Shown piece by piece: positions 1,791 to 30,632 of a DNA stretch of 64,000 nucleotides. Source of the stretch: Spirochaetia bacterium (GTDB lineage: Bacteria; Spirochaetota; Spirochaetia; WTKD01; G963693115); the NCBI GenBank assembly GCA_965226055.1, contig CBDDCA010000006.1:258251-322250 (forward strand), read 5' to 3'. Position 1 is the stretch's first letter, and each line of letters starts with the position of its first letter. The notes beneath the pieces were generated by a model. The model was given only the letters and a program-made list of their open reading frames with translations. It made no database searches and was not told the origin of the DNA. The position numbers were made by a program, and so were the translations under genes.

Positions 1791-4043
1791 ATGAAGTTAA
1801 ATATATTCTATTTATTTTTTATATTTCTTGTGTTTTCACTTTTTACTTGTGAAGATATAAAGGTTAATAGTAAGGAAAAAGCCACCGCACCAGCAGAGGC
1901 ACGCAGTGTTACAGCAAGCCACACCGATACAAGTATAACTATATCATGGCAAGCCCCTACCCTTACAAGCATACACACAAAAGCAAATGGAGAAAGGCTT
2001 ACAACGACAGATGTATCGTACAAAGTATACAGAGTAGCAAAAGGAAGTGATGCCCGAAGTATAGCCCAGATTAAAACAGCAGACACGAACCCGATAGCAG
2101 TAGCAAAAGGAACAACAAGCACAACTATAAGTAACCTTACTGAAAATACCACCTATGAAATAGTAGTACAATCAGTCAATGCAACAGATAGTACACAAGT
2201 CTCTACAGGCATGCGAATAGAAGTTACTACCCTTGCTACTAATCAAGCAACCGCACCAGCAGAGGCACGCAGTGTTACGGGAAGTCCTACCGATACCAGT
2301 ATAGGCATATCATGGCAAGCACCTGCCCTTACAAGCACACACAAAAAAGCAGATGGAGAAAGGCTCACAACAGCAGATGTATCGTACAAAGTATACAGAG
2401 TAGCAAAAGGAAGCAAAGCCCGCACAATAGCCCAGATTAAAACAGCAGACACAAACCCGATAGCAGTAGCAAAAGGAACAACAAGCACAACTATAAGTAA
2501 CCTTACTATAAATACTACCTATGAAATAGTAGTACAATCAGTCAATGCCACTGACCCAACAAAAATCTCTACAGGTACACTAATAGAAGTAACTACCAAT
2601 AGTCAAGCAACTGCACCAGCAGAGGCACGCAGTGTTACAGCAAACCACACCGATACCAGTACAACTATATCATGGCAACCCCCAATACTTACAAGCACAC
2701 ACAAAAAAGCAGATGGAGAAAGGCTCACAACGGCAGATGTATCGTATAAAGTATACAGAGTAGCAAAAGGAAAGAATGCCCGCACAATAGCCCAGATTAA
2801 AACAGCAGACACAAACCCAATAGCAGTTGCAAAAGGAATAACAAGCACAACTATAAGTAACCTTACTGGAAATACTCCCTATGAAATAGTAGTACAATCA
2901 GTCAATGCCACCGACCCAACAAAAACCTCTACAGGAGTACAAATAGAAATAACTACCAATAGTCAAGCAACTGCACCAGACGAGACACACAGTGTTACAG
3001 CAAGCCACACCGATACCAGTACAACTATATCATGGCAAGCCCCTACCCTTACAAGCAGTCACAAGAAAGCAGATGGAAGATGGCTCACAACAGCAGATGT
3101 ATCGTACAAAGTATACAGAGTAGCAAAAGGAAAGAATGCTCGCACAATAGCCCAAATTAAAACAGCAGACACGAACCCGATAGCAGTAGCAAAAGGAACA
3201 ACAAGCACAACTATAAGTAACCTTACTGGAAATACCACCTATGAAATAGTAGTACAATCAGTCAATGCTACCGACCCAACAAAAACCTCTACAGGAGTAC
3301 AAATAGAAATAACCACCCCAAGCCAAGCTACCATACCAGAAGAAATCCGCTTTTTAGGAAGAAGTCGAACCGATGACAGTATATCCCTATCATGGATATA
3401 TATTTATATTACTCCAGGCAAGAAAGCAACTGGACAAAAGCTTACAGCGGCAGATATATCGTATAAAATATATAGAGTAGCAAAAGGAAAGAATGCCCGC
3501 ACAGTAGCCCAGATTAAAACAGCAGACACAAACCCGATAACAGTAGCAAAAGGAATAACAAGCACAACTATAAGTAACCTTACTATAAATACTACCTATG
3601 AAATAGTAGTACAATCAGTCAATGAAACGGACACTACAAAAGTATCTACAGGAGTACGAATAGAAGCAAATACCGATAGTCAGGCAACCGCACCAGAAGA
3701 TACACAAAGTGTTGGAGTAGATACGACCACCGATGACAGTATAAGAATATCATGGGAAGCCCCTACCCTTACAAGCACACACAAAAAAGCAGATGGAGGA
3801 AGGCTCACAACAGCAGATGTATCATATAAAGTATACAGAGTAGCAAAAGGAAGGTATCCCCGCACAATAGCCCAGATTAAAACAGCAGACACGAACCCGA
3901 TAACAGTAGCAAAAGGAATAACCCACGCAACTATAAGTAACCTTAATGGAAATACTACCTATGAAATAGTAATACAATCAGTGAATGCAACGGACACTAC
4001 AAAAGTATCTACAGGAATACGATTAGAAGTAAATACCAAATAA
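1791..4043 (+). CDS. Surface lipoprotein with six tandem ~120-aa FN3-like modules
   Basis: N-terminal signal peptide with lipobox (LFTC). Each module reads ISWQAP..Y.VYRVAKG...TTYEIVVQSVNATD, an FN3-like W/Y/YxV pattern. Preceded by the RBS agagg. Confidence 0.8.
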   Translation: MKLNIFYLFFIFLVFSLFTCEDIKVNSKEKATAPAEARSVTASHTDTSITISWQAPTLTSIHTKANGERLTTTDVSYKVYRVAKGSDARSIAQIKTADTNPIAVAKGTTSTTISNLTENTTYEIVVQSVNATDSTQVSTGMRIEVTTLATNQATAPAEARSVTGSPTDTSIGISWQAPALTSTHKKADGERLTTADVSYKVYRVAKGSKARTIAQIKTADTNPIAVAKGTTSTTISNLTINTTYEIVVQSVNATDPTKISTGTLIEVTTNSQATAPAEARSVTANHTDTSTTISWQPPILTSTHKKADGERLTTADVSYKVYRVAKGKNARTIAQIKTADTNPIAVAKGITSTTISNLTGNTPYEIVVQSVNATDPTKTSTGVQIEITTNSQATAPDETHSVTASHTDTSTTISWQAPTLTSSHKKADGRWLTTADVSYKVYRVAKGKNARTIAQIKTADTNPIAVAKGTTSTTISNLTGNTTYEIVVQSVNATDPTKTSTGVQIEITTPSQATIPEEIRFLGRSRTDDSISLSWIYIYITPGKKATGQKLTAADISYKIYRVAKGKNARTVAQIKTADTNPITVAKGITSTTISNLTINTTYEIVVQSVNETDTTKVSTGVRIEANTDSQATAPEDTQSVGVDTTTDDSIRISWEAPTLTSTHKKADGGRLTTADVSYKVYRVAKGRYPRTIAQIKTADTNPITVAKGITHATISNLNGNTTYEIVIQSVNATDTTKVSTGIRLEVNTK
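1887..4043 (+). repeat. 6 x 360-bp in-frame tandem repeat (coding)
   Basis: Repeat units start at about 1887, 2246, 2606, 2966, 3326 and 3686 and are near-identical at the DNA level. They generate the periodic antisense ORF artefacts seen in the ORF track. Confidence 0.85.
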
Positions 4044-9930: not shown

Positions 9931-10536
9931 TTATATTCTACTGAATAAGATACTGAACAAAATACCAAATCCTGACAACATGATAGTCATTTGAATTCCA
10001 AAAAACCAGTACATAATAGTACTGTTTGTTTTTATCGATTCTTTCATAGATTTTATTTCTGTTGTCAAATTTTCCCGTACACTATTTATTTCTGTTGTCA
10101 AATTTTCCCGTACACTGCTTATCTCTGTTGTTAAGTTCTCCCGTATGCTGTTTATTTCTGTTGTTAAGTTCTCCCGTACACTGTTTATTTCTGTTGTTAA
10201 TTTCTTCTCTACACTGTTTATTTCTGTTGTCAAATTTTCCCGTACACTGCTTATCTCTGTTGTCAAATTCTCTCGTACGCTGTTTATTTCTGTTGTCAAA
10301 TTTTCCCGTACACTATTTATTTCTATTGTCAAATTTTCCCGTACACTGCTTATCTCTGCTGTTAAGTTCTCCCGTACACTGCTTATCTCTGCTGTTAAGT
10401 TCTCCCGTACGCTGTTTATTTCTGTTGTTAATTTCTTCTCTACACTGTTTATTTTTTCTAATAAAAAATCATATTGTGTAATTGGAGTTGCAAGCATTCC
10501 ATCTTCATTTGTAATTTTCTCTTGTACTGCTCTCAT
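9931..10536 (-). CDS. Tail-anchored coiled-coil protein with ~13 tandem 11-residue (hendecad) repeats
   Basis: Repeats of (T/A)EI(N/S)SVRENLT have hydrophobic residues at positions 1, 4 and 8 of each 11-mer. Single C-terminal TM segment (IMYWFFGIQMTIMLSGFGILFSILF). Confidence 0.55.
   Translation of the reverse strand: MRAVQEKITNEDGMLATPITQYDFLLEKINSVEKKLTTEINSVRENLTAEISSVRENLTAEISSVRENLTIEINSVRENLTTEINSVRENLTTEISSVRENLTTEINSVEKKLTTEINSVRENLTTEINSIRENLTTEISSVRENLTTEINSVRENLTTEIKSMKESIKTNSTIMYWFFGIQMTIMLSGFGILFSILFSRI
10047..10447. repeat. About 12 x 33-bp tandem repeat (VNTR) inside CDS 9931-10536
   Basis: Contiguous 33-bp units with a few substitutions each (ttatttctgttgtcaaattttcccgtacactat). 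No spacers, so it is not a CRISPR array. Confidence 0.85.
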
Positions 10537-10604
10537 AATTTTATTATATCATATTATTATCATTGAGTAAGTATGTAATCATTTGTAAGGTTGCAAATAA
10601 ACAA

Positions 10605-13600
10605 CTAGCGACAATTCCCCGCTGGAAGACACCATCCAGGCAAGTTTTTTACAGCTGTACCCTTAAACATATCTGTTTTTATCACACTGTTTGCTACATT
10701 CCAGTTACTCAAATTCTGATTAAAAACACTAGCATCAGCAAACATACTGCTCATATCGGTAACATTACTTACATTCCAATTCCCTATATCTTGATTAAAA
10801 ACATCAGCATCATAAAACATATACCTCATATTGGCAACATTACTTACATTCCAATTCCCTATATCCTGATTAAAAGCTTCAGCATCATAAAACATACTGT
10901 TCATATTGGTAACTTTACCTACATTCCATTTTGATATATCTCCATTGAAAAATTCTGTTTGATTAAACATATTGCTCATATCGGTAACTTTACTTACATT
11001 CCATAACGATACATCTCCATTAAAGTATTGTTTATCATAAAATAGCCCTCCCATGTCTGTTATGTTACTTGTATCTATCATGTTTAAGTTAGGGGCAAAT
11101 CCTTGTGCTTTTATCTCTGCTTCTATGGCTTCCTCTAACTTTTTTTTGTTTTGAGGAGTGTACTTGTATTCTATCGTAACTGATATTGTTTTTGATCTAC
11201 TGGCATCAGTATATGTATGTATTGCTTTCCCATCGCTCTTTTTACTGGTAAACTCTATAGTATAGGTCTTTGAAGCTGCTTTGGTAGGAGTACCTGATAT
11301 CTTCCCAGTATCAGCATCAAAGCTCAACCCTGTATCTGCTGTTATATCCGGACTTATACTAAAAATTCCTGCTATAGCGGGTGTTTTAGTAAGTGTTACT
11401 TCTTTATCTTTCGTTAATGGTACTCCTACATATGCCTTTACACTACCTCCTATACTAGCTCTACTTGCACTTATATTAAAATACCATGTAGGGAGTATTA
11501 CTACAGCTGTATGCTCAAACATATTTGTTTTACTCACAGTTTTATCCACATTCCATGTTTCAAGTTCTTTATTAAATACACTTGCTCCCTTAAACATATT
11601 GCTCATATCGGTAACTTTACTGACATTCCACCCTGTTATATCTTGATTAAACTTACTTGCATTAATAAACATACTACGCATATCGGTAACTTTACTGACA
11701 TTCCACCCTGTTATATCTTGATTAAACTCACTTGCCTTAAAAAACATACTGCTCATATTGGTAACGCTACTGACATTCCATCTTGATATATTTCCATTAA
11801 AATTAACTTCACTGGAAAATAGACTACTCATATCTTTTATTTTACTTGTATCTATCATAGTGAGATCGGGGGTATTTCCTTGTACAGTTATCTCTGTATT
11901 TATAGCCTGCTGTAATTCTGCTTTATTATTAGGAATATGCTTATACTCTTTAATAGTAACTAACACTTTTATAGTCCGCCTATCATCAATATATTTATGT
12001 ATGAGTGTTTTATCAGCCTCTTCACTTCTAAACTGTATGGTATACTCAGTCTGTGAAGTTACTGTGGTGGGAGTACCTGATATTATGCCAGTACTAGTAT
12101 CAAAGTTCAACCCTGTATTTGTTGTTATATTTGGACTTATACTAAAACTCCCTGTTATAACGGGCGTTTTGGTAAGTATTATTTTTTGACTGTCTAGGAG
12201 TGATAAATCTCTATAGACACTTATAGTAGTACTATTTGCACTTATACTAAAATACCATGTAGGCAACTTTTTTACTGCTGAAGCAAGAAACATATCTGTT
12301 TTTGTCACACCGCTATCTACATTCCAACTTTCAAGATCTTGGTTAAATGCATTTGCGTTATTAAACATAAAAAACATATTCGTAACACTACTGACATTCC
12401 AATTTGATATATCCCCATTAAATTTTTGTGCTCCTGCAAATATACTGCTCATATTGGTAACTTTACTTACATCCCATTTCGATACATTTCCATTAAAATG
12501 ATCTTTACTGGAAAATATATTACTCATATCTGTTATAGCACTCGTATCTATTATGTTTAGATTAGCGGTATTTCCTTGTGCATTTATCTCATCATCTACA
12601 GCCTTCTGTAATTCTGTTTTATCACTGGGCGTATACTTATACTGACTTATAGTTACATGTATCTCTATTGTCCGATCAGTATATGTATGTATTGTTTTCC
12701 CATTCTTTTCACTGGTAAACTGTATAGTATACTTAGTTTGTGAAGCTAATATAGTGGGAGTACCCGATATTGAGCCAGTGTTAGTATCAAAGTTCAACCC
12801 TGTATTTGTTGTTATATTTGGACTTATACTAAAACTCCCTGTTACATTAGACGTTTTAGTGAGTGTTATTGTTTCAGTGTTACTTAGCGATAAATCTTTG
12901 TATCCAGTTATAGTAGTTCTGTTTGCATTTATACTAAAATACCATGTAGGCAACTTCTTTACTACTGTACTTTCAAACATATTTGTTTTTATTACACTGC
13001 TTTTTACATTCCAGTTTTCCAGATTTGCACTAAACTTTGATGCAAAATTGAACATAGTTTCCATATTTGTAACTTTACTTACAGTCCAATTTTTTATATC
13101 TTGGTTAAAGCTTTGTGCAGATAGAAACATAGCTCTCATATTTATAACTTTACTTACAGTCCAATTTTTTATATCTTGGTTAAAGGCATGTGCTCCAGCA
13201 AATAAACTCTCCATATTTGTAACAGCACTTACATTCCATCCTGATATATCTCCATTAAATTTATTCGCATTCAAAAACATATTGCTCATATTTGTAACTT
13301 TACTTACATTCCATTTTGATATATCTCCATTGAAATTAGCTTTATCCTCAAATAGATTACTCATATCTGTTATAACACTTGTGTCTATTATGTTGAGATT
13401 AGCAGTATCTCCTTGTGCAGCTATCTCATCATCTACAGCTTTCTGTAACTCTGTTTTATTACTAGGAGTATGCTTATAACTTGTGGTAACTGATATTTTT
13501 ATTGTTCTATCAGTATATTTATGTGTCGCTGGATTACCTTTACTATCAGTAAAGCTACTGGTAAACTCTATAGTATAATCAGTCTTTGAAGCTGCTTTAG

Positions 13601-16600
13601 TAGGAGTTCCTGATATTGTGCCAGTGCTAGTATTAAAATCTAACCCTGTATTTACTGTTATATCTGGACTTATACTAAAACTTCCTGTTATATCAGGCGT
13701 TTTGGTAAAAGTTATTTCTTTATTTTTTGCAAGTGGAACATTTACATATGTATTTATACTACGATTACTTGCACTTATATTAAAATACCATGTAGGCAAC
13801 TTTGCTACTGCGGTATTCTTAAACATATCTGTTTTTGTCACACCACTTGCTACATTCCAGCTTTCAAGATCTTTTTCAAATGCATTTGCTCCACTGAGCA
13901 TACTACTCATATTGGTGACAGCATTTACATCCCATTCGGATATATCTCCATTGAAAGTAATATTATCCTTAAATAGATCACTCATATCTGTTATTTTACT
14001 TGTATCTATTATGTTGAGATTAGCTTCGTTTCCTTGTACATTTATCTCTGTAGTTATAGCTTGCTTTAATTCTGTTTTATTATTAGGAGTATGCTTATAC
14101 CTACGTATCTCTACCGATATTTTTATTGTCCTATCAGTATCAATATATTTATGTATTACTGTTCCATCTGTCTTTTTACTTGTAAACTGTATGGTATATT
14201 CAGTCTTTGAGATTGCTGTAAGAGGAGTACCCGATATTTTACCAGTGCTAGGATCAAAATCTAAACCTGTATTTTTTGCTATATCTGGACTAACGCTAAA
14301 ACTTCCTGTTATATTAGGTGTTTTGGTAAGGGTTATTTCTTTATCTGTTGCTAATGGTATGTTTTTATATGCAATTATCTTATTATCACTTGCACTTATG
14401 CTAAAATACCATGTAGGCAACTTTGCTACTGCGGTATTCTTAAATATATCTGTTTTTGTCACAGTCCCATCGCTTGCTACATTCCAATCTTCCAGATCTT
14501 GGTTAAATTTTGTCGCTCCCAAGAACATCTTGCCTATATCGGTAACGCTACTTATATTCCAGCTTGATATATCTTGATTAAACGCTGCCGCTGACGAAAA
14601 CATCTGATGCATATTCGTAACTTTTCCTACCTTCCAATTTGATATATCTTTATTAAAAATGGTTGCTCCCGAAAACATAGCTGTCATATTTGTAACTTTT
14701 CTTACATCCCAGCCCGACATATTGCTATTAAAATTTGCTGCTCCTAAAAACATTCGATTCATATCCGTAACTGCCCCTACATTCCACCCCGATATATCTT
14801 TATTGAAACTGGTTGCTCCCGAAAACATATTCCCCATATCATTCACATTTTGTACCTTCCAATTTGATATATCTTGATTAAAACTTGTCGCATTCCAAAA
14901 CATACCATTCATGTTAGTAACACTTTGTACCTTCCAGTTTGATATATCTTGATTAAAACTACCTGCATAATAAAACATACTGCTCATATCAATAACATTA
15001 CTTACATTCCAACCAGAAATATCCCCATTAAATGCAGCAGCTTGATTAAACATATGACTCATATCAGTAACATTACTTACATCCCACTCAGATATTTTAC
15101 CATTAAAAGTAGTATTACTATTAAATAATCCACTCATATCATCAATCTTACTAGTATCAATTATATTTAAGTCAGCAGTATTTCCTTGTAATCCTATCTC
15201 AGTATTTATATTGTTTATTAATTCTAATTTACCAGTAGGAGTATACTTATGCCCTATAGTAACTGTTATCGTTATTGTCCTATCAGTATAGGCATATATT
15301 GTTTTCCCATTCTTTTCACTGGTAAACTGTATGGTGTAAGGAGTTTTTGAAGCTACCTTTGTAGGAGTACCCGATATTGTCCCAGAGCTAGAATCAAAAC
15401 TCAAGCCTGTATTTGTTGTGATACTTGGACTTATACTAAAACTTCCTGCTATACTAGGTGTTTTGGTAACTTTTATTTCTTCACTTGCTCCTAATTTTAT
15501 ACGTGCTTGCCCTGTCAGAGCAGACTTATTTGCACTTATACTAAAATACCATGTAGGTAACTTTGCTACTGCGGTATTCTTAAACATATCTGTTTTTGTC
15601 ACAGTCCCATCGCTTGCCACCTTCCAGCTTTCAAGATCTTTGTCAAATGCACTTGCTCCTAAAAACATGCTACTCATATCAGCAACCTTGCTTACATTCC
15701 ATCCCGATACATTTTGATTGAAACTTGTTGCTCCTGAAAACATATTACTCATATCGGTAACGCTACTTACATCCCATCCCGATATATCTCCATTGAAATT
15801 AGCTTTATTCTCAAATATATTACTCATATCTGTTATATTACTTGTATTTATTATGTTTAAGTTAGCAGTATTTCCTTGTACTTCTATCTCCTTTTTTATG
15901 TTTTCCAATAACTCTGTTTTGTTGTTAGGAGTATAAAGATAAGTATTTATTGCTACTGATAGAGTGATGGATCTAGTATCGACATAAGTATATGTCGCTG
16001 GATTACCTGAGCTATCAGTAAAGCTACTGGTAAACTGTATGGTGTAAGAAGTTTGTGAAGCTGCCTCGGTAGGAGTACCCGATATTGTGCCAGTTCTAGT
16101 ATCAAAATCTAACCCTGTATTTGCTTTGATATCTGGACTTATACTGAAACTTCCTGCTATAAGGGGTGTCCTTGTCAGTATTATATCTGTTATTGGTACT
16201 TTTACTCCCTCATGTATACTATTGCTGCTTGCGCTTATACTAAAATACCATGTAGGTAATTTTGCTACTGCAGTATTCGTAAACATATTTGTTTTTGTCT
16301 TAAGGCTTGCTATATTCCAGTTTTCAATATCTCCATTAAATTTTATCGCCCCACTCAACATATTTTCCATATCAGTGACTTTACTTACATTCCACTCGGA
16401 TATATTTCCATTGAAAGTAGTGTTATCCTTAAATAGATCACTCATATCTGTTATGTTACTTGTATCTATTATGTTGAGATTAGCAGTATTTCCTTGTGCA
16501 TTTATCTCTGTAGTTATAGCTTGCTTTAATTCTGCTATATTATTGGGAGTATGCTTATATTTATGTATCTCTACTGATATTGTTATTGTTCTATCAGTAT

Positions 16601-19073
16601 AGGTATGTGTTGCTAAAGCACCTGTACTACCAGTAAAGCTACTGGTAAACTGTATGGTGTAAGAAGTTTGTGAAACTGCTTTGGTAGGAGTGCCTGATAT
16701 TGTCCCAGTGCTAGTATTAAAACTCAACCCTGTATTTGCTGTTATATCTGGACTAATACTAAAATTTCCTGCTATATCAGGCGTTTTGCTAAGGGTTATT
16801 TCTTCATTTTTTGCTAGCGGTATTCCTCTATATACATCTATACTAGCACTATTTGACTTTATGCTAAAATACCATGTAGGTAATTTTGCTACTGCGGTAT
16901 TCTTAAATATATCTGTTTTTGTCACAGCGATTGCTACATTCCAGCCTTCAAGATCTTGTGTAAACTTAGAAGCACCAGAAAACATGCTACTCATATTGGT
17001 AACCTTGCTTACATTCCATCCCGACACATTTTGATTGAAACTTGTTGCTCCTAAAAACATACTGCTCATATCGGCAACTTTACTTACATTCCATCCCGAT
17101 ACATTTTGATTGAAACTTGTTGCTCCTAAAAACATACTGCTCATATCGGTAACTTTACTTACATTCCATTTCGATATGTCTCCATTAAAACTTGTTGCTC
17201 CTGAAAACATACTGCTCATATCGGTAACTTTACTTACATTCCATTTCGATATATCTCCATTGAAAGTAGTGTTATCCTTAAATAGCCTACTCATATCTGT
17301 TATAAGACTCGTATTTATTATGTTTAGATTAGCAGTATTTCCTTGCAATCCTACCTCTGTTTTTATAGCTTCCAATAATTCTGCTTTATTTTTTGGCTTA
17401 TACTCTATAGTGAGCAATATTTCTATTGTCCTATCAGTATCAGTATAGGTATGTATTTCTGTCCTATCAGAGGAGGTACTTGTAAATGTTATAATATACT
17501 CAGTCTCTGAGGCTACCTTTGTAGGAGTACCTGATATTGTGCCAGTACTAGTATCAAAACTCAACCCTATACTCGTTATATCTGGCTTTATACCAAATTT
17601 TCCTGTTATATCAGGCGTTTTGCTAAGAGTTATTTTTTCATTATCTGCTAGTGATACCCCTTTATATACAGTGAGCTCATCAACATTAGCACTTATGCTA
17701 AAATACCATGTAGGCAATTTTGCTACTGCGGTATTTGTAAACATATCTTTTTTTGTCACAGTGCTTGCTACATTCCAGCCTTCAAGATCTTTATCAAATG
17801 CACTTGCTCCTGAAAACATACCATCCATATCTGTAATATTACTTACCTTCCACTTTGATATGTCTCCATTGAAACTTGTTGCTCCTGCAAACATATTACT
17901 CATATCGGTAACATTGCTTACATCCCACAATGATATATCTCTATTAAAGGTAGTGTCATCCTTAAATAGATCATGCATATCTTTTACAGCACTTGTATTT
18001 ATATAGTTAAAATTATCTACATCAGTATTTTTAATTGCTTCTATTAATTCGTTACGTGTTTTTACTATAGCAGTAAACACCGATACATATATAGAGAACT
18101 GGCTAGACTTTCCTAAGTAACTTCCATCCCCTGTAAAACGAATTGTATATTTTCTTCGTATACCATTTTCTTTATCCTTCAATAACCTTATTGCAGTGCC
18201 ATATATTTCTCCATTATTGTCCTTCATCTCCAATCCTGTATCTTCCGTAAGAGTTGTCGTTTTTCCATCAGTACTATTAAATTCAATACTCCATGTACCA
18301 GTAATTCCTGGAGGGCTTGTTGCAATATTGATTGGCATTAAAGGAACATTCAAGCTCGACTTGATTAACTGTTCATTATCATACCTATCTGTGATAGAGT
18401 TTCCATCACGCACAAGAGTAAATACATAATGCCAACTAGGAATACTTGTTGCAGGTACATTAGCTCCCTTAAATATATCTTGTATATTTACTGAATCTGC
18501 TACCTGCCATTTCTCTAAATCATACTGAAACACTGTTGCTTTATTAAACATGTTACTCATATCGGTAACCTTGCTCACATTCCAGCCTGATATATCTTGA
18601 TTAAAACTTGCTGCGGCTTCAAACATGTTACTCATATCGGTAACCTTGCTCACATTCCAGCCTGATATATTTTGATTAAAACTCGTTGCTCCCTTAAACA
18701 GATTACTCATATTAGTAACATTACTTACATTCCAGCCTGATATATTTCCATTAAAGGTAGTATTTCCTTCAAACATACTGCTCATATCAGTAATATTGCT
18801 TACATCCCAACTTGATATATCACCTGAAAAATTGGAAAATTCACCATCACCTTTGAATAAGCCGCTTATATCTTTTACTTTACTTGTATCTATAGTAGAG
18901 AGATCTGCTGCATTTCCGCGGGAGGCAATTTCTCGCTTAATGTTTTCAATAAGCGATTCTCTACTATCAGGAGAGTAAATAAAGTCTAAACTTAAAGATT
19001 TTTCTGGATCACAACCAGATACCAAAAAAGCGAAACATAAAAATAGCCAAAATATAAAAAATTGATACTTCAT
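10605..19073 (-). CDS. Giant modular surface lipoprotein (2822 aa) of reiterated DUF285-repeat and Ig-like (He_PIG-like) modules
   Basis: Signal peptide with lipobox LVSGC. About 8 modules of ~330 aa, each built from several DISxWNVSxVTxMSxMF repeats, then AVAKLPTWYFSI, then GLSFDTSTGTISGTPT. Confidence 0.85.
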   Translation of the reverse strand: MKYQFFIFWLFLCFAFLVSGCDPEKSLSLDFIYSPDSRESLIENIKREIASRGNAADLSTIDTSKVKDISGLFKGDGEFSNFSGDISSWDVSNITDMSSMFEGNTTFNGNISGWNVSNVTNMSNLFKGATSFNQNISGWNVSKVTDMSNMFEAAASFNQDISGWNVSKVTDMSNMFNKATVFQYDLEKWQVADSVNIQDIFKGANVPATSIPSWHYVFTLVRDGNSITDRYDNEQLIKSSLNVPLMPINIATSPPGITGTWSIEFNSTDGKTTTLTEDTGLEMKDNNGEIYGTAIRLLKDKENGIRRKYTIRFTGDGSYLGKSSQFSIYVSVFTAIVKTRNELIEAIKNTDVDNFNYINTSAVKDMHDLFKDDTTFNRDISLWDVSNVTDMSNMFAGATSFNGDISKWKVSNITDMDGMFSGASAFDKDLEGWNVASTVTKKDMFTNTAVAKLPTWYFSISANVDELTVYKGVSLADNEKITLSKTPDITGKFGIKPDITSIGLSFDTSTGTISGTPTKVASETEYIITFTSTSSDRTEIHTYTDTDRTIEILLTIEYKPKNKAELLEAIKTEVGLQGNTANLNIINTSLITDMSRLFKDNTTFNGDISKWNVSKVTDMSSMFSGATSFNGDISKWNVSKVTDMSSMFLGATSFNQNVSGWNVSKVADMSSMFLGATSFNQNVSGWNVSKVTNMSSMFSGASKFTQDLEGWNVAIAVTKTDIFKNTAVAKLPTWYFSIKSNSASIDVYRGIPLAKNEEITLSKTPDIAGNFSISPDITANTGLSFNTSTGTISGTPTKAVSQTSYTIQFTSSFTGSTGALATHTYTDRTITISVEIHKYKHTPNNIAELKQAITTEINAQGNTANLNIIDTSNITDMSDLFKDNTTFNGNISEWNVSKVTDMENMLSGAIKFNGDIENWNIASLKTKTNMFTNTAVAKLPTWYFSISASSNSIHEGVKVPITDIILTRTPLIAGSFSISPDIKANTGLDFDTRTGTISGTPTEAASQTSYTIQFTSSFTDSSGNPATYTYVDTRSITLSVAINTYLYTPNNKTELLENIKKEIEVQGNTANLNIINTSNITDMSNIFENKANFNGDISGWDVSSVTDMSNMFSGATSFNQNVSGWNVSKVADMSSMFLGASAFDKDLESWKVASDGTVTKTDMFKNTAVAKLPTWYFSISANKSALTGQARIKLGASEEIKVTKTPSIAGSFSISPSITTNTGLSFDSSSGTISGTPTKVASKTPYTIQFTSEKNGKTIYAYTDRTITITVTIGHKYTPTGKLELINNINTEIGLQGNTADLNIIDTSKIDDMSGLFNSNTTFNGKISEWDVSNVTDMSHMFNQAAAFNGDISGWNVSNVIDMSSMFYYAGSFNQDISNWKVQSVTNMNGMFWNATSFNQDISNWKVQNVNDMGNMFSGATSFNKDISGWNVGAVTDMNRMFLGAANFNSNMSGWDVRKVTNMTAMFSGATIFNKDISNWKVGKVTNMHQMFSSAAAFNQDISSWNISSVTDIGKMFLGATKFNQDLEDWNVASDGTVTKTDIFKNTAVAKLPTWYFSISASDNKIIAYKNIPLATDKEITLTKTPNITGSFSVSPDIAKNTGLDFDPSTGKISGTPLTAISKTEYTIQFTSKKTDGTVIHKYIDTDRTIKISVEIRRYKHTPNNKTELKQAITTEINVQGNEANLNIIDTSKITDMSDLFKDNITFNGDISEWDVNAVTNMSSMLSGANAFEKDLESWNVASGVTKTDMFKNTAVAKLPTWYFNISASNRSINTYVNVPLAKNKEITFTKTPDITGSFSISPDITVNTGLDFNTSTGTISGTPTKAASKTDYTIEFTSSFTDSKGNPATHKYTDRTIKISVTTSYKHTPSNKTELQKAVDDEIAAQGDTANLNIIDTSVITDMSNLFEDKANFNGDISKWNVSKVTNMSNMFLNANKFNGDISGWNVSAVTNMESLFAGAHAFNQDIKNWTVSKVINMRAMFLSAQSFNQDIKNWTVSKVTNMETMFNFASKFSANLENWNVKSSVIKTNMFESTVVKKLPTWYFSINANRTTITGYKDLSLSNTETITLTKTSNVTGSFSISPNITTNTGLNFDTNTGSISGTPTILASQTKYTIQFTSEKNGKTIHTYTDRTIEIHVTISQYKYTPSDKTELQKAVDDEINAQGNTANLNIIDTSAITDMSNIFSSKDHFNGNVSKWDVSKVTNMSSIFAGAQKFNGDISNWNVSSVTNMFFMFNNANAFNQDLESWNVDSGVTKTDMFLASAVKKLPTWYFSISANSTTISVYRDLSLLDSQKIILTKTPVITGSFSISPNITTNTGLNFDTSTGIISGTPTTVTSQTEYTIQFRSEEADKTLIHKYIDDRRTIKVLVTIKEYKHIPNNKAELQQAINTEITVQGNTPDLTMIDTSKIKDMSSLFSSEVNFNGNISRWNVSSVTNMSSMFFKASEFNQDITGWNVSKVTDMRSMFINASKFNQDITGWNVSKVTDMSNMFKGASVFNKELETWNVDKTVSKTNMFEHTAVVILPTWYFNISASRASIGGSVKAYVGVPLTKDKEVTLTKTPAIAGIFSISPDITADTGLSFDADTGKISGTPTKAASKTYTIEFTSKKSDGKAIHTYTDASRSKTISVTIEYKYTPQNKKKLEEAIEAEIKAQGFAPNLNMIDTSNITDMGGLFYDKQYFNGDVSLWNVSKVTDMSNMFNQTEFFNGDISKWNVGKVTNMNSMFYDAEAFNQDIGNWNVSNVANMRYMFYDADVFNQDIGNWNVSNVTDMSSMFADASVFNQNLSNWNVANSVIKTDMFKGTAVKNLPGWCLPAGNCR

Positions 19074-19219: not shown

Positions 19220-19675
19220 TTATTTCTTACGTTTTGCTCGCGTACTCTTGGGTGTATTCTTCTGTTGTGTATCATTCTCATCATTCACCATGATAGTATT
19301 AAAATTGATAGGAGGCAGTAGTATTGGGGAAATGCCAGATTTTGCTGTTAATGAAGAAATATATTCTCTTACATAAGGAAAAAGAACAGCAGGAGCATCT
19401 TTTTTTGAAAATTCTTTCAATAATGCTATATTTGGTTCTTCTGCATCTTCTTGAAACTGTCCTGCACAAATAATTTCAATATGTAACGAGTTTTCTTCAT
19501 TTTGAATTGTAACCTTTAGTTCTACATATAGCATATTATTATCTTCATCTATTGAAGATTTTGCTTCCATCTGCGGATCAATTTCAGATGATTGTATAGT
19601 AGCAGCTCTCTGGAATACTACATGAGGAAATATAATAGAATGTATTCTAATACCAAGTGATTTATTTTTTTGCAT
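19220..19675 (-). CDS. secB: Protein-export chaperone SecB
   Basis: AVLFPYVREYISSLTAKSGISPILLPPINFNTIMVN aligns with E. coli SecB [36 protein letters not shown]. Confidence 0.8.
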   Translation of the reverse strand: MQKNKSLGIRIHSIIFPHVVFQRAATIQSSEIDPQMEAKSSIDEDNNMLYVELKVTIQNEENSLHIEIICAGQFQEDAEEPNIALLKEFSKKDAPAVLFPYVREYISSLTAKSGISPILLPPINFNTIMVNDENDTQQKNTPKSTRAKRKK

Positions 19676-27673: not shown

Positions 27674-28360
27674 CTACTCTCTCTGTAAGTGCTCTATAAT
27701 CATTTCTTTTGCTTCTGAAATCTCTAATAACGATGTTATAAAATAGTGCATATTCTCTTTTTGATGGAATTTTCTCTCATTGACTATCTCATCATAGTTA
27801 ATACACAGTAAACTACACAGCTCTTCTCCTGTATATGCCTCATACTCATTTATCTTATTCTTGAAGCCTGTCACTATCTGTTTTTTGTCTGTTACATTAA
27901 AAGAACACATCACAGGAGTAACGGTAAACTGTATTTCTCGTGATATAAAATTAATATATTCGTGTAAATGCCGTCTCTCTCCCGCTGATTTTTTAGTATC
28001 AAATTGATCTCCATCTTTTACTTCTATGACATAACAATTCTGCACATTCTGTTTTGTTTTTTGGAATGCTACAAAATCAGGCTCAAAAGATTTCTGAGCT
28101 ATTAAGGATTTTTTTATTTGTTGTTTGTTCGCTACCCATATTCCTTCTGGATAGGAATCTGACTTTAGATAAGAGTCAATATCTGTTATTTGATTACAAC
28201 GCTCCCATATAATCTTTTCTAGTTCATTCCCTGCTGATATTACTGTAGCTTGTAACTTACTTATCAAGTTACCTAGCTTTTCATTCCCTACTATTCTTGT
28301 ATAACCACTTGGAGACTGTTTCGTATCTCTTCCTTTTGCTTCACTGAGAAGAGCATTCAT
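27674..28360 (-). CDS. Type II restriction endonuclease candidate (PD-(D/E)xK fold)
   Basis: EPDF...CYVIEVKDG fits a PD..(E)VK catalytic motif. Its start overlaps the stop of the upstream methyltransferase by 4 bp (ATGA). Confidence 0.6.
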
Positions 28361-29070
28361 GTTTCTATTATATCACATCCTAAAAAATTTCTGTTTGATT
28401 TTTTACATGCTTCAAATACAGAAAAACTACCGCTTGCAGGGTCTATTACTATATCATCCTCATTTGTTACTGCTTCAATCAATGCTTTTTGTAGCTCTAT
28501 TGGCTTGTTATGAGCATGATTTCTCTCTACTTTCTCATCCCATACATCTCTTATAGTATGAACAGTCCATACTCCCTTTGCTCTTTTAGGAGCTTTCTGA
28601 ATAACATATACATATTCTGATACTCGCCTTGTTCTATACCCCATCCCTATTCTTTGTTTATTCCATGTTATAAGATCCACTATTTCTAAATGAGTTTCTA
28701 CTAACCACTTACTAATACCATTACACAAAATAAATTTGTCTACCCATAAAAAACAATGCCCCATAGGATGCAATACTCTATCTATCTCTTTTATAAACTT
28801 GTCTATTATTTTATCTGTCATCTGTGGCAAAATAGCTCTCGCTTTTTGCCGCTCCCCTTCATTTCCATATCCTTGCTTATCTAAGATTCCTCTATACTGA
28901 GGATCAAAAAATACTACTGGGAATGTATTACTATCCAACTTAGAAAGAAGATCTAAGCCATCCATCTGCATTTTTGTGTTTAGTGTTAGTCCTTTCGCTA
29001 ATGTTATATCTCCTTGCTTAATATCTCGCTTACTCGAATATACATTATTGGGATTATACTGTGCTTTCAT
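28357..29070 (-). CDS. DNA amino-methyltransferase (N6A or N4C), beta-class
   Basis: Motif IV FFDPQY near the N-terminus and motif [15 protein letters not shown] near the C-terminus. This order indicates a beta-class, PF01555-like enzyme. Confidence 0.75.
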
Positions 29071-30632
29071 GATAAGAGAGAATAGTAGCTTTGTAACACT
29101 GGATGAGGATCTCCTTTCAACAAAGTATGTGTTAGTACTTTTCCTAACTGCACCCCTTCTTGATCAAAAGAATTGATGTTCCATAAGAACCCTTGAAACA
29201 TTACTTTATTTTCAAAGTGTGAAAGTAACGCACCAAGTGTGTACGGAGTTGCCATATCAGCATACAATACACTGGAAGGACGATTTCCTATAAACAGCTT
29301 ATGTGCATTATCATTATCCTTTCCCATTGAAAACGCCACTATCTGTGCTGCTAAGTTTGCCAACAGCTTTTGTTGACTTGTAGAGCCTTCATAGGATATA
29401 TCATGTTGCATCTGAGAATGAGTAAACGCTATAAACTGTAATGGTACAATATCAGTTCCCTGATGTAATAGCTGATAAAAACTATGCTGTCCGTTTGTCC
29501 CTGGTTCTCCAAACACTACCGGTCCAGTAGTATAGTCAATACGTTCCCCAAAACGATTTACTTGTTTTCCATTACTCTCCATATCAAGCTGTTGTAAATG
29601 AGCAGGAAAACGAGATAACGCCTGACTATACGGAAGCACTGCAGTGTAAGGATACTTAAGAACATTACGTTCGTACACACCAATAAGAGCATCTATCATT
29701 GCAGGATTTTGCATAACAGGAGCAGTATACGCTATCTTATCACTCTCATGTGTACCACGTAAAAACTCCCGTGTTATATCGCTTCCATAGGCAAGATTTA
29801 AGAGACATACTCCCACCGCACTACTTACCGAATAGCGTCCACCAATATAATCATCAATAAAAAAAGAATCGAGGTAATCTTTTGATTGTGCTAAAGGACT
29901 TGTTTCAGAGGTTACACATACCATATGCTTTTTGGGATGTTTAATACCTGCTTGTTGTAACCATTCTAACGCAAACTGAGCATTGGTAAGCGTTTCTTGT
30001 GTTGTCCCACTCTTTGAAACTAAAATAAACAATGTTGTTTCTGGATTAGCAAACAATAATTGTTCTCCCGTATCATCAGGGTCAACATTACTTATAAACC
30101 CTACTTTTCGTATAGGAATATCTTTTCTTTTTGCGTATACATAGGAACGCAAAGCAAGATATACAGCACGAGGGCCAAGATCTGAACCTCCTATTCCTAT
30201 TTGAATAAAAGTATCAAAAGGTTTTCCTGTTTCTCCTACTATTTCTTGGGCATGTACTTTTTTTGCAAAATTTTCACAAAGGCGTATCTGTTCGGCATAA
30301 AATTCATTATAATTTCTCCCTTCTTTTTGGACTACAGTGTCTAACTGTCCACGAAGAGCATGGTGTAATACCATACGCTGTTCGCCAGTGTTTACTATTT
30401 CCCCATTTACAAGCTGAGAAAACATTTCTTTGAGTTGTTGTTCTTCTGACAGAGCATAGAGTTGCTGAAGTATCTCATCGTTTACTCTTTTTGCAGAAAA
30501 ATTATAGCGGTATCCAGCTCCTGCTACATCATATTGTTGAATACGTTTTGCATCAAATTGTTCATAACTAAACAATGGCATATCACTTAACTTCTTAAAA
30601 TTAGTACAATCATTTAAGTTCTTATTACTCAT
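29067..30632 (-). CDS. pgi: Glucose-6-phosphate isomerase
   Basis: 521 aa with PGI family sequence features ([18 protein letters not shown]). Its stop overlaps the methyltransferase start by 4 bp. Confidence 0.9.

What the first reader, a model, noticed from the sequence alone, without database searches (positions are those of the whole stretch)
9931..10536. Tail-anchored hendecad (11-residue) coiled-coil protein encoded by a 33-bp VNTR between the two DUF285 genes
About 13 near-perfect copies of TEINSVRENLT (33-bp DNA repeats, 10047-10447) place hydrophobic residues at positions 1, 4 and 8. That is the a-d-h pattern of 11/3 right-handed coiled coils such as the YadA stalk and tetrabrachion. 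A single C-terminal TM helix and a short tail follow. The near-identical DNA repeats predict strain-to-strain copy-number variation and so variable stalk length. The gene is sandwiched between two DUF285 lipoprotein genes, so it may belong to the same surface system.
Basis: partly seen in the sequence, partly recalled or inferred. Interest (0 to 1): 0.55.

Follow-up and report, generated by a model that had tools for sequence, protein, structure and literature searches.

The report
Headless Bdr/DUF1640-type membrane-anchored coiled-coil protein
This is a real gene for a small protein that is almost entirely one long 11-residue-repeat helix ending in a membrane anchor; it is an unusual "headless" relative of a known but functionally unexplained family (DUF1640/CCDC90-like, which includes the Borrelia Bdr proteins), and it most likely points into the cell, not out from the surface.

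Summary
ORF 9931-10536 (-) encodes 201 aa: a 25-aa N-terminus, 13 tandem 11-residue units (consensus TTEINSVRENL; I/V/L spaced 3-4-4), one C-terminal transmembrane segment and a 3-residue tail. Variation among the units is mostly synonymous, so it is coding. AlphaFold2 models one helix (18-199, pLDDT 92). A syntenic ortholog in a related Spirochaetia MAG is 226 aa, with 14 hendecads plus two heptads, so stalk length does change between relatives.

It passes Pfam's cut-off for CCDC90-like/DUF1640, but over stalk and anchor only. In plasmids its annotated relatives are almost all Borrelia Bdr proteins (33-38% identity over about 90% of its length). It shares phrog_9415 with Bdr. It lacks the DUF1640 head, the Bdr N-terminal domain and the KID repeat. 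Its only close relatives are six proteins of 72-226 aa that share a short N-terminal motif and the anchor.

There is no signal peptide, and family members have matrix-facing stalks or sit at the inner membrane, so the rod most likely lies in the cytoplasm. The YadA-like surface-stalk reading is not supported. Adjacency to DUF285 genes is conserved, but any functional link is untested. Verdict: a new headless variant of a known kind, of modest interest, with function unknown.

The parts
9931..10536 (-). Complete ORF, 201 codons plus stop (stop at 9931-9933)
   Evidence: An independent gene call exists for the 226-aa ortholog in MAG OZ244590.1.
10543..10551 (-). Extended -10 box TGATATAAT, 6 nt upstream of the ATG. 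No Shine-Dalgarno motif is present. A leaderless transcript is inferred.
   Evidence: Read from the sequence. The box, the spacer and the ATG are identical in L001. The TTGACA/TATAAT scan did not list it because it has no -35 match.
10462..10536 (-). N-terminal 25 aa, MRAVQEKITNEDGMLATPITQYDFL. Hydrophilic, with no signal peptide. Acts as a 'mini-head'.
   Evidence: AF2 pLDDT is 51-69 for residues 1-20.
10444..10485 (-). Clade-specific motif P-I-T-Q-Y-D-F-L-L-E-K-I-N-S (aa 18-31) at the start of the stalk. Candidate degenerate beta-layer neck.
   Evidence: Conserved in P0045, P0155, P0156 and P0158. The DUF1640 neck consensus is [aliphatic]-A-T-K-[polar]-[DE] (PMC4786415). The resemblance is not proven.
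10033..10461 (-). Stalk of 13 tandem 33-bp / 11-aa units (aa 26-168). Core I(a), V(d), L(h).
   Evidence: Of 37 unit-to-consensus differences, 26 fall at codon position 3. Codon changes are 25 synonymous and 11 nonsynonymous.
9943..10020 (-). C-terminal transmembrane anchor TIMYWFFGIQMTIMLSGFGILFSILF (aa 173-198). It carries a W-x-x-G interface motif and a conserved polar Q.
9934..9942 (-). Three-residue tail SRI beyond the membrane segment
8650..9642 (-). Context: downstream 330-aa DUF285 / PARCEL-repeat lipoprotein-like gene with its own promoter-like site (9768-9739)
   Evidence: Synteny is conserved in L001/L007.
10605..19073 (-). Context: upstream 2822-aa DUF285 + He_PIG giant lipoprotein-like gene. 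A weak terminator-like hairpin lies at its stop (10623-10607).
   Evidence: Synteny is conserved.

Best explanation
The ORF encodes a tail-anchored protein of the cytoplasmic membrane. It belongs to the head-neck-stalk-anchor world of DUF1640/CCDC90-like proteins, the group that also contains the Borrelia Bdr proteins and several prophage proteins. It is a reduced version that lacks the globular head.

Shown here:
- Residues 18-172 form an uninterrupted amphipathic helix with 11/3 periodicity and a narrow hydrophobic stripe (about 65 degrees) made of I, V and L.
- A single transmembrane segment sits 3 residues from the C-terminus.
- A short conserved N-terminal motif sits exactly where DUF1640 proteins carry their beta-layer neck.

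Inferred:
- The helices associate in parallel, probably as a trimer as in the family, into a nearly straight, slightly right-handed rod of about 21-23 nm.
- There is no signal peptide and the C-terminal tail is only 3 residues, so the rod stays on the cytoplasmic side. It would present the conserved 25-residue N-terminal peptide at a fixed distance from the membrane, acting as a spacer or scaffold.
- The polar Q and the small residues in the anchor help the membrane segments pack together.

Rod length is set by the repeat array. The array changes by in-frame block duplication or deletion of 33-bp units, and occasionally 21-bp units, which keeps the 3/4 hydrophobic spacing. Within this small clade the stalk ranges from about 25 to 168 residues.

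The gene appears to have its own extended -10 promoter abutting the ATG, so the mRNA is inferred to be leaderless. The cellular function and binding partner are unknown, as they are for all prokaryotic members of the family.
For: It is coding:
- Variation among units is 26 of 37 at the third codon position, with 25 synonymous and 11 nonsynonymous codon changes.
- The ortholog differs by indels that are multiples of 3 and that preserve the 3-4 / 3-4-4 spacing.
- Divergent homologs at 40-52% identity conserve both the N-terminal motif and the anchor.
- The ortholog is called as a gene in the MAG.

Structure:
- The AF2 monomer is one helix, residues 18-199, with pLDDT above 95 across the repeats.
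- The periodicity peak is at 3.667. The stalk is 29% hydrophobic, and a, d and h lie within 65 degrees of each other.

Family:
- PF07798 CCDC90-like scores 38.7 bits against a cut-off of 33.5, matching profile positions 49-172 of 175. The ortholog scores 34.5 bits.
- 31 of the 52 short proteins among the best phmmer hits also match PF07798.
- 29 of the 150 best hits are tail-anchored, and many have FDT..G..QAE heads and LATKxDL necks.
- tblastn against plasmids gives 263 Borrelia/Borreliella records, the listed hits almost all annotated 'Bdr family repetitive protein', at 33-38% identity over 87-96% of the query, with E-values down to 6e-19.
- BLASTP against a Bdr protein gives E 4e-27 and the alignment runs into the anchor.
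- phrog_9415 matches both this protein (79 bits) and Bdr (39 bits).
- The phage hits include APSE-1 and Liberibacter SC2 proteins annotated 'DUF1640 domain-containing protein'.
- An anchor-only profile comparison between this clade and canonical members gives probability 85% and E 6e-6, aligning on W-x-x-G.

Topology:
- There is no N-terminal hydrophobic segment.
- The coiled coils of MCUR1 and of Put6/Put7 face the matrix (bioRxiv 10.1101/2025.10.14.682030, PMC7519068).

Length variation:
- The protein is 201 aa here and 226 aa in the ortholog.
- The window array contains a block duplication at a 231-bp shift (96% identical). The L001 array contains a perfect duplication at a 120-bp shift.
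- Bdr repeat numbers also differ between Borrelia strains (PMC3303823).
Against: - The Pfam, PHROG and BLAST scores are carried largely by the repetitive coiled coil. That region is compositionally biased and could be convergent. The Apolipoprotein model, clearly a non-specific match, scores even higher at 70 bits.
- The head that defines DUF1640 and the N-terminal domain that defines Bdr are both absent. The KID repeat model scores only 12 bits.
- Oligomeric state was not tested; only a monomer could be modelled.
- Topology is inferred, and the charge bias around the membrane segment is weak (+1 on the N-side against R plus the C-terminal carboxylate).
- There are no expression data, and the leaderless promoter is a reading of the sequence only.
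- The neck motif matches the beta-layer consensus at only 3-4 of 6 positions.
Confidence: 0.6

Rival explanations
1. Periplasmic or surface stalk belonging to the DUF285 lipoprotein system. The anchor sits in the inner membrane and the 21-25 nm rod spans the periplasm or reaches the surface, where it spaces or tethers the giant DUF285 lipoproteins in the manner of a YadA-type stalk.
For: The order giant DUF285 gene, hendecad gene, small DUF285 gene is conserved in the related MAG. A 72-aa paralog in that MAG lies 1.4 kb downstream of another DUF285+fn3 giant gene. A SecB-like gene lies directly upstream of the giant gene.
Against: There is no signal peptide or N-terminal hydrophobic segment. 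Exporting an acidic 170-residue N-terminal domain through a C-terminal anchor with a 3-residue tail has no known route; this rests on established knowledge of tail-anchored proteins. Family members are matrix-facing or associated with the inner membrane. DUF285 genes occupy about 22% of this window, so adjacency is weak evidence. The gene has its own promoter-like site.
Confidence: 0.1
2. A lipid-surface-binding amphipathic 11-mer protein of the apolipoprotein / perilipin / alpha-synuclein / LEA type. The helix would lie flat on a membrane or lipid body and would not form a coiled coil.
For: The top Pfam hit is Apolipoprotein A1/A4/E at 70.3 bits. The top PDB sequence hits are apolipoproteins A-IV, A-I and E, with E-values down to 1e-7. 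All share 11-residue periodicity.
Against: The Apolipoprotein score is below the family cut-off of 90 bits. The same model hits 51 of the 52 unrelated short hendecad proteins, so the match is non-specific. Only 29% of stalk residues are hydrophobic, and they form a stripe about 65 degrees wide, not the broad face of class A lipid-binding helices. The stalk has a net charge of -9.
Confidence: 0.07
3. A remnant or cargo gene of a prophage, for example an XhlA-like accessory protein of a holin/lysis module. Its position next to the DUF285 genes would then be incidental.
For: phrog_9415 matches at 79 bits. Prophage-borne relatives include Bdr on cp32, downstream of the blyA/blyB holin genes, APSE-1 P47 and a Liberibacter SC2 DUF1640 protein. 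There is a weak XhlA match to the anchor region: 15 bits here and 22-26 bits for the three Bdr proteins.
Against: There are no phage genes in the neighbourhood; the neighbours are DUF285 genes, sugar ABC transporters, a SecB-like gene and a GH4 gene. The chromosomal synteny is conserved in a second genome. All XhlA scores are far below the cut-off of 34.7 bits.
Confidence: 0.06
4. A non-coding minisatellite. The ORF would be an artefact, since a stop-free repeat unit stays open in several frames.
For: Two frames on the opposite strand are also open across the array (139 and 141 aa). The exact protein is absent from the 15-billion-protein collection. No Shine-Dalgarno motif is present.
Against: Unit variation is biased to the third codon position and to synonymous changes in the minus-strand frame. 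The ORF extends beyond the array into a conserved N-terminus and a transmembrane segment. Homologs with quite different repeats conserve both ends. Indels respect coiled-coil spacing. The ortholog is called as a gene.
Confidence: 0.03

Closest known systems
DUF1640 / CCDC90-like family (Pfam PF07798): prokaryotic and organellar head-neck-stalk-anchor membrane proteins, including human MCUR1 and CCDC90B and yeast Put6/Put7
   Same: Both have a long coiled-coil stalk, often built of (T/S)xEIxxVRxxL-type hendecads in bacteria, ending in one C-terminal transmembrane anchor that commonly opens with W-x-x-G. A short motif sits at the start of the stalk where the family has its beta-layer neck. The protein passes the Pfam cut-off.
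   Different: There is no globular head: 25 residues stand in place of the FDT..G..QAE domain, and Pfam profile positions 1-48 are unmatched. The neck motif is degenerate (P-I-T-Q-Y-D against Φ-A-T-K-x-D/E). The repeats are unusually regular and young.
Borrelia Bdr (Borrelia direct repeat) proteins: NCBIfam NF040499 N-terminal domain plus Pfam PF02524 KID repeat
   Same: Both occur in spirochaetes and are about 200 aa. Both have tandem 11-residue units with I-x-x-V-x-x-N-L, occasional 7-residue units, and a C-terminal hydrophobic anchor with W-x-x-G-I. Repeat number differs between relatives. Identity is 33-38% over about 90% of the length, and both match phrog_9415.
   Different: The Bdr N-terminal domain is absent and the KID repeat model is not matched. 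This gene is chromosomal and appears once in this window, with no plasmid or cp32-prophage context; Bdr genes form a multi-copy family on plasmids and prophages. A Bdr representative ranks only about 146th of the 150 best phmmer hits, so it is no closer than generic bacterial DUF1640 proteins.
   Same: Both have 11/3 periodicity with an a-d-h core.
   Different: This protein has no signal peptide, no beta-barrel or S-layer anchor and no sequence relationship. The only PDB matches to adhesins are marginal (E 0.16-0.71). The predicted topology is cytoplasmic.
Exchangeable apolipoproteins and other 11-mer amphipathic lipid-binding repeats
   Same: Both have 11-residue periodicity, and this gives the highest raw Pfam and PDB sequence scores.
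   Different: The score is below the family threshold, the hydrophobic stripe is narrow, and the same match is shared non-specifically by nearly all hendecad proteins.

Membership tests
DUF1640 / CCDC90-like (PF07798; head-neck-stalk-anchor) | Whole-protein score above Pfam's gathering cut-off | tested here: met
   38.7 bits against 33.5. The ortholog scores 34.5 bits. The score comes from stalk and anchor only (profile positions 49-172), so it is biased by the coiled coil.
DUF1640 / CCDC90-like (PF07798; head-neck-stalk-anchor) | N-terminal globular head domain (about 45-60 aa, FDT..L..G..QAE type or another head type) | tested here: not met
   Only 25 residues precede the stalk. Profile positions 1-48 are unmatched. 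AF2 shows no folded domain.
DUF1640 / CCDC90-like (PF07798; head-neck-stalk-anchor) | Beta-layer neck motif [aliphatic]-A-T-K-[polar]-[DE] at the start of the stalk (PMC4786415) | tested here: inconclusive
   The window has P-I-T-Q-Y-D at the start of the stalk. Clade members have P-A-T-H-Y-D and P-V-T-K-Y-D. That is 3-4 of 6 positions. A beta-layer can only be seen in a trimer model or a solved structure.
DUF1640 / CCDC90-like (PF07798; head-neck-stalk-anchor) | Coiled-coil stalk followed by a single C-terminal transmembrane anchor | tested here: met
   The anchor-only hhalign comparison with canonical members gives probability 85%.
DUF1640 / CCDC90-like (PF07798; head-neck-stalk-anchor) | Trimeric assembly | not testable with these tools
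   Only monomer prediction was available. The trimeric state of the family is taken from Adlakha et al. 2019 (Structure 27:464) from memory; the paper is not held. The beta-layer constructs were trimeric (PMC4786415).
Bdr (Borrelia direct repeat) family | Bdr N-terminal domain (NCBIfam NF040499, cut-off 40 bits) | tested here: not met
   Bdr controls score 94-95 bits. The model is absent from the best 25 NCBIfam matches shown for the window protein (33 families matched at E<=1). The ortholog has no match at E<=0.01.
Bdr (Borrelia direct repeat) family | KID repeat (PF02524, cut-off 20.8 bits) | tested here: not met
   Fragments score 12.3-12.4 bits. Bdr controls score 71-83 bits.
Bdr (Borrelia direct repeat) family | Central tandem 11-residue repeats plus a C-terminal hydrophobic anchor, with repeat number varying between strains | tested here: met
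   Bdr strain variation is reported in PMC3303823.
Bdr (Borrelia direct repeat) family | Multi-copy paralogous family on Borrelia linear plasmids and cp32 plasmids/prophages | tested here: not met
   The context is chromosomal in a non-Borrelia Spirochaetia genome. There is one copy in the window. The related MAG has two paralogs, 226 aa and 72 aa.
Trimeric autotransporter adhesin stalk (YadA-like) | Signal peptide, C-terminal beta-barrel translocator, and head/neck domains | tested here: not met
   There is no N-terminal hydrophobic segment. The C-terminus is a single 26-residue helix. No TAA family appears among the best 25 Pfam or NCBIfam matches shown.

The most novel reading that the evidence does not exclude
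These proteins could form a small spirochaete-restricted clade of headless neck-stalk-anchor proteins. In at least two of the genomes where they occur, a long-stalk and a mini-stalk paralog are present together (226 + 72 aa; 119 + 80 aa). Under this reading, the repeat-encoded rod is a length-adjustable cytoplasmic ruler or docking platform that works with the adjacent SecB-like chaperone in the export or biogenesis of the giant DUF285/PARCEL surface lipoproteins beside which the genes sit. It would also be the nearest chromosomal analogue of the enigmatic Borrelia Bdr proteins outside Borrelia, offering a simpler system in which to find out what Bdr/DUF1640 rods do.
Probability: 0.1. Interest if true: 0.6.

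Novelty: new variant of a known kind. Interest (0 to 1): 0.3.

Why it matters
Tail-anchored hendecad rods of the DUF1640/CCDC90-like/Bdr type are widespread in bacteria, prophages and mitochondria. Their function in prokaryotes is unknown, and Bdr function has been open since the late 1990s.

This clade reduces the architecture to a 25-residue N-terminal peptide, a rod and an anchor. The rod varies naturally from about 25 to 168 residues while both ends stay conserved. That makes it a convenient minimal case for asking whether rod length matters and what the N-terminal tip binds.

For genome annotation, it shows that such ORFs should be labelled as DUF1640/Bdr-like inner-membrane proteins. They should not be labelled as surface adhesin stalks or apolipoprotein-like proteins.

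The finding does not overturn anything. It extends a known family.

Tried and rejected
1. The first full-length search of the 5.8-billion-protein database was swamped by repeat words (8000 candidates) and gave only 4 unrelated hendecad proteins. I repeated it with repeat-trimmed alignments.
2. Exact look-ups of the window protein, its DUF285 neighbour, P0045, P0155 and P0158 found no contigs. The genomic context of three of the six clade members therefore could not be examined.
3. The metagenome scan returned only one weak, unrelated locus, L005 (15% identity). No strain-level alleles were obtained.
4. PDB sequence search gave only apolipoprotein-type periodicity matches. I rejected these as non-specific.
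5. I considered strict Bdr membership and rejected it.
6. The XhlA / holin-accessory idea has only sub-threshold scores.
7. I looked for a paralog in the window at the site syntenic with the MAG's 72-aa paralog and found none.
8. The original Bdr papers (PMC2640845, PMC101917, PMC116504, PMC538826) and Adlakha et al. 2019 are not held. Statements about them rest on citing papers or on memory and are marked as such.
9. I did not run a fold search, because a single long helix gives meaningless matches.
10. The intrinsic-terminator scan found no terminator after the stop codon, only a hairpin inside the ORF.
Full report
OBSERVATION. The minus-strand ORF 9931-10536 exists and encodes 201 aa. Tandem Repeats Finder reports a 33-bp array at 10052-10454 with 12.2 copies, 86% matches and score 515. 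In codon register, 13 units of 11 residues cover aa 26-168, which is nt 10033-10461. Eleven internal units read T-T/A/I-E-I-N/S-S-V/I-R/E-E/K-N/K-L. The first unit (LEKINSVEKKL) and the last (TTEIKSMKESI) are diverged.

Hydrophobic residues follow an unbroken 3-4-4 spacing from residue 29 to 168. The hydrophobicity spectrum peaks at 11/3 = 3.667 residues, with amplitude 1.29 against 0.10 at 3.5. Residues 173-198 (TIMYWFFGIQMTIMLSGFGILFSILF) are the only hydrophobic segment, with a mean Kyte-Doolittle score of 1.82 over 19 residues. Three residues, SRI, follow it. The N-terminus is polar and has no signal peptide. The repeats are near-perfect as protein, but as DNA they differ by 0-18 of 33 nt between units.

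IS IT A GENE? Frames on the opposite strand are also open across the array, so openness alone proves nothing. Four observations show that the minus-strand frame is the coding one.
- Of the 37 nucleotide differences between internal units and their consensus, 26 lie at codon position 3. Of the differing codons, 25 are synonymous and 11 are not. For example, E-N-L is written both as GAGAACTTA and as GAAAATTTG.
- A syntenic ortholog exists in a complete 2.36-Mb Spirochaetia MAG chromosome (OZ244590.1; locus L001). It is 226 aa with nearly identical ends, and it is called as a gene there.
- The two arrays differ by in-frame changes that respect coiled-coil rules. The ortholog has 14 hendecads plus two 7-residue units (NGIRENL), giving the spacing ...3-4-3-4-4....
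- Divergent homologs with quite different repeats conserve both the N-terminal motif and the anchor.

No Shine-Dalgarno motif precedes the ATG. Instead an extended -10 box, TGATATAAT, lies 6 nt upstream, and it is identical in the ortholog. This places a transcription start at or next to the A of the ATG, so I infer a leaderless mRNA. This has not been shown experimentally.

STRUCTURE. AlphaFold2 run as a monomer without an alignment gives one continuous helix from residue 18 to 199. The mean pLDDT is 91.9, above 95 over the repeats, and the first residues have low confidence. On an 11/3 helix the I, V and L positions (a, d, h) lie within 65 degrees of each other. Only 29% of stalk residues are hydrophobic, and the stalk has a net charge of -9. 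This is the narrow seam of a coiled-coil core, not the wide face of a lipid-surface helix. Thirteen hendecads correspond to about 21 nm of helix, and the ortholog's stalk to about 25 nm. The oligomeric state could not be tested with the tools available.

WHAT FAMILY?

Pfam. CCDC90-like/DUF1640 (PF07798) scores 38.7 bits against a gathering cut-off of 33.5, but only over profile positions 49-172 of 175, which are stalk and anchor. The ortholog also passes, at 34.5 bits. The numerically best Pfam hit is Apolipoprotein (70 bits, cut-off 90), and the PDB sequence hits to apolipoproteins have the same origin. These are periodicity artefacts, because the same model matches 51 of 52 unrelated short hendecad proteins.

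Bdr. A tblastn search of 72,556 plasmids hit 274 records. Of these, 263 are Borrelia or Borreliella, and the listed hits are almost all annotated 'Bdr family repetitive protein'. Identity is 33-38% over 87-96% of the query, with E-values down to 6e-19. A pairwise BLASTP against the Bdr protein of N40 cp32-4 gives 33% identity over 177 residues and E 4e-27. That alignment runs into the anchor, where W-x-x-G-I is shared. [quoted passage not shown] Their repeat number differs between strains (PMC3303823).

PHROGs and phages. Both this protein (79 bits) and Bdr (39 bits) match phrog_9415, a family of unknown function. In the phage collection the best annotated relatives are 'DUF1640 domain-containing protein' of Hamiltonella phage APSE-1 and of Liberibacter phage SC2.

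Exhaustive search. A phmmer search of 1.84 billion representative proteins found 1591 hits at E<=1e-3, but none closer than the 50% clustering level. Among the 150 best, 29 are tail-anchored proteins, mostly of 120-250 aa. Many of these show the canonical architecture: an FDT..L..G..QAE head, an LATKxDL neck, hendecads of the type (S/T)xEIxxVRxxL or TAKIDxVExxL, and an anchor opening with W-x-x-G. Of the 52 short hits, 31 match PF07798. One representative is itself a Bdr protein, but it ranks about 146th. Bdr is therefore not specially close to this protein. It is simply the Borrelia branch of the same world.

Anchor-only comparison. A profile-profile comparison of this clade against canonical members, using the anchor region only, gives probability 85% and E 6e-6, aligned on the last stalk unit and W-x-x-G.

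WHAT IS DIFFERENT? The protein has no head. Only 25 residues precede the stalk. The Bdr N-terminal domain (NF040499) is not matched, while Bdr controls score 94-95 bits. The KID repeat model scores 12 bits against a cut-off of 20.8.

Its true close relatives form a very small set in a database of 5.8 billion protein clusters:
- the 226-aa ortholog;
- P0045 (119 aa) and P0158 (80 aa), both on one 727-kb contig;
- P0155 (72 aa);
- P0156 (72 aa), on the same MAG chromosome as the ortholog.

All share the N-terminal motif D-D/G-x-L-x-T/A-P-[IVA]-T-[QKH]-Y-D-[FLI]-L-L/V-E-K-[IM]-N-S. All share the anchor I-K-T-(x4)-Y-W-x-x-G-I-[QHN]-x-x-I-x-L-[ST]-G-F. The N-terminal motif sits exactly where DUF1640 proteins carry their beta-layer neck, whose consensus is [aliphatic]-A-T-K-[polar]-[DE] (Hartmann et al. 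2016, PMC4786415). P-V-T-K-Y-D, P-A-T-H-Y-D and P-I-T-Q-Y-D match that consensus at 3-4 of 6 positions. This is suggestive, not proven.

Between these conserved ends the stalk ranges from about 25 residues in the 72-aa paralogs to 168 residues, and it mixes 7- and 11-residue units. At least two of the genomes carry a long and a mini paralog together.

REPEAT DYNAMICS. The window and the MAG are 94.6% identical over 4.6 kb of the adjacent ABC-transporter genes, and 82-87% identical in the giant DUF285 gene. They are close relatives, not isolates of one strain. The window array contains a block duplication: units 1-5 resemble units 8-12 at a 231-bp shift with 96% identity, and units 7 and 11 are identical. 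The MAG array contains a perfect duplication at a 120-bp shift, which copied the terminal unit into the interior and so created the heptad junctions. The array therefore evolves by unequal recombination of multi-unit blocks, independently in each lineage. This supports the prediction that stalk length is labile. Strain-level VNTR behaviour was not tested, because the single metagenome scan found no further alleles.

TOPOLOGY AND THE 'SURFACE SYSTEM' IDEA. There is no signal peptide, there is a single hydrophobic segment, and the C-terminal tail is 3 residues long. This makes it a classical tail-anchored protein. Established knowledge of such proteins places the N-terminal domain in the cytoplasm. 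In the family, the coiled coil of MCUR1 extends into the mitochondrial matrix (bioRxiv 10.1101/2025.10.14.682030). Put6 and Put7 are matrix-facing (PMC7519068). [quoted passage not shown] The matrix is topologically equivalent to the bacterial cytoplasm. The YadA / tetrabrachion analogy therefore holds only for the 11/3 periodicity.

The genomic association with DUF285 genes is real. The gene order is conserved in the MAG. The MAG's mini paralog lies 1.4 kb downstream of another DUF285+fn3 giant gene. A SecB-like gene lies directly upstream of the giant gene in the window. However, DUF285 genes occupy about a fifth of this window. The hendecad gene appears to have its own promoter. The contexts of the other clade members could not be retrieved. 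A functional link remains speculation.

MECHANISM PROPOSED. I propose a parallel homo-oligomeric rod, probably trimeric, that is nearly straight and slightly right-handed. It is tail-anchored in the cytoplasmic membrane and projects about 21-25 nm into the cytoplasm. It presents a short conserved N-terminal peptide or N-cap. Its length is set by an evolvable repeat array.

The helicity, periodicity, anchor, family relationship and length variation are shown. Oligomerisation, orientation, the neck beta-layer, the leaderless transcript and any scaffold role are inferred. My confidence in the overall picture is about 0.6. The cellular function is unknown.

NOVELTY AND SCORE. The architecture and family are known. 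This is a reduced, headless variant confined, as far as the searches could see, to a handful of genomes. The two whose organism could be identified are this window's source and the MAG, both Spirochaetia. It would not surprise a coiled-coil or Borrelia specialist, but it is a tidy minimal member of a family whose function is still open. Interest 0.3.

Noticed in passing
window 10543-10551 (-); also upstream of 27674-28360 (-), 29067-30632 (-), 56191-60906 (+) and 61691-62458 (-): Five of 41 large ORFs have a -10-like box ending 4-9 nt before the start codon. None of the five has a Shine-Dalgarno motif. Two of them carry the identical sequence TGATATAAT followed by 6 nt and the ATG. This suggests leaderless mRNAs are used in this organism. 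Only 16 of the 41 ORFs have an obvious Shine-Dalgarno motif.
   Followed up: partly
window 10007-10024 (-), inside the ORF: A terminator-like hairpin, CAGTAC-TATTAT-GTACTG followed by GTTTTTTGG, lies inside the coding region just where the membrane anchor begins. In L001 the stem keeps pairing through a G-U wobble. It could be coincidence, or it could produce a truncated transcript lacking the anchor.
   Followed up: no
L006 8001-8219 (MAG OZ244590.1, 2134909-2151127): A 72-aa mini paralog (P0156) has the same N-terminal motif and anchor but only about 2 stalk units. It lies between a DUF285+fn3 giant gene and parE/parC-like genes. The syntenic region of the window (after 60964) does not align and has no such ORF.
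   Followed up: partly
window 19220-19675 (-): A SecB-like gene (PF02556, 47.5 bits) lies immediately upstream of the 2822-aa DUF285 lipoprotein gene. It may be a dedicated export chaperone for the giant protein.
   Followed up: no
window 10605-19073 (-) and 56191-60906 (+): Two giant lipoprotein-like proteins are present. The first, of 2822 aa, has 18 DUF285/PARCEL stretches and 9 He_PIG Ig-like domains in a repeated supermodule of about 300 aa. The second, of 1571 aa, has fn3 domains plus a DUF285 end. Their DNA is full of 75/150-bp tandem repeats. They diverge much faster than the neighbouring transporter genes (82-87% against 94.6% identity to the MAG).
   Followed up: partly
window 1791-4043 (+): A 750-aa protein is built on a 360-bp tandem repeat (6 copies, 84% matches) that encodes fn3-like domains.
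   Followed up: no
window 43031-43990 (-) and 44115-45119 (-): Two adjacent ORFs of about 320-334 aa have identical 30-nt upstream sequences (agtactagtatgatatacttgtactagtgt). This indicates a tandem gene duplication that included the promoter or leader.
   Followed up: no
window 54892-55857 (+): An IS30-like transposase (HTH_38 plus an rve integrase core) lies just upstream of the second DUF285 giant gene.
   Followed up: no
L002-L004 (Borrelia cp32 plasmids): On cp32, the bdr gene sits directly downstream of blyA (holin), two blyB genes and a BBA14 lipoprotein gene. Bdr proteins give sub-threshold matches to the XhlA holin-accessory family (22-26 bits against 34.7). This hints that Bdr/DUF1640 proteins on prophages may belong to lysis cassettes.
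   Followed up: partly
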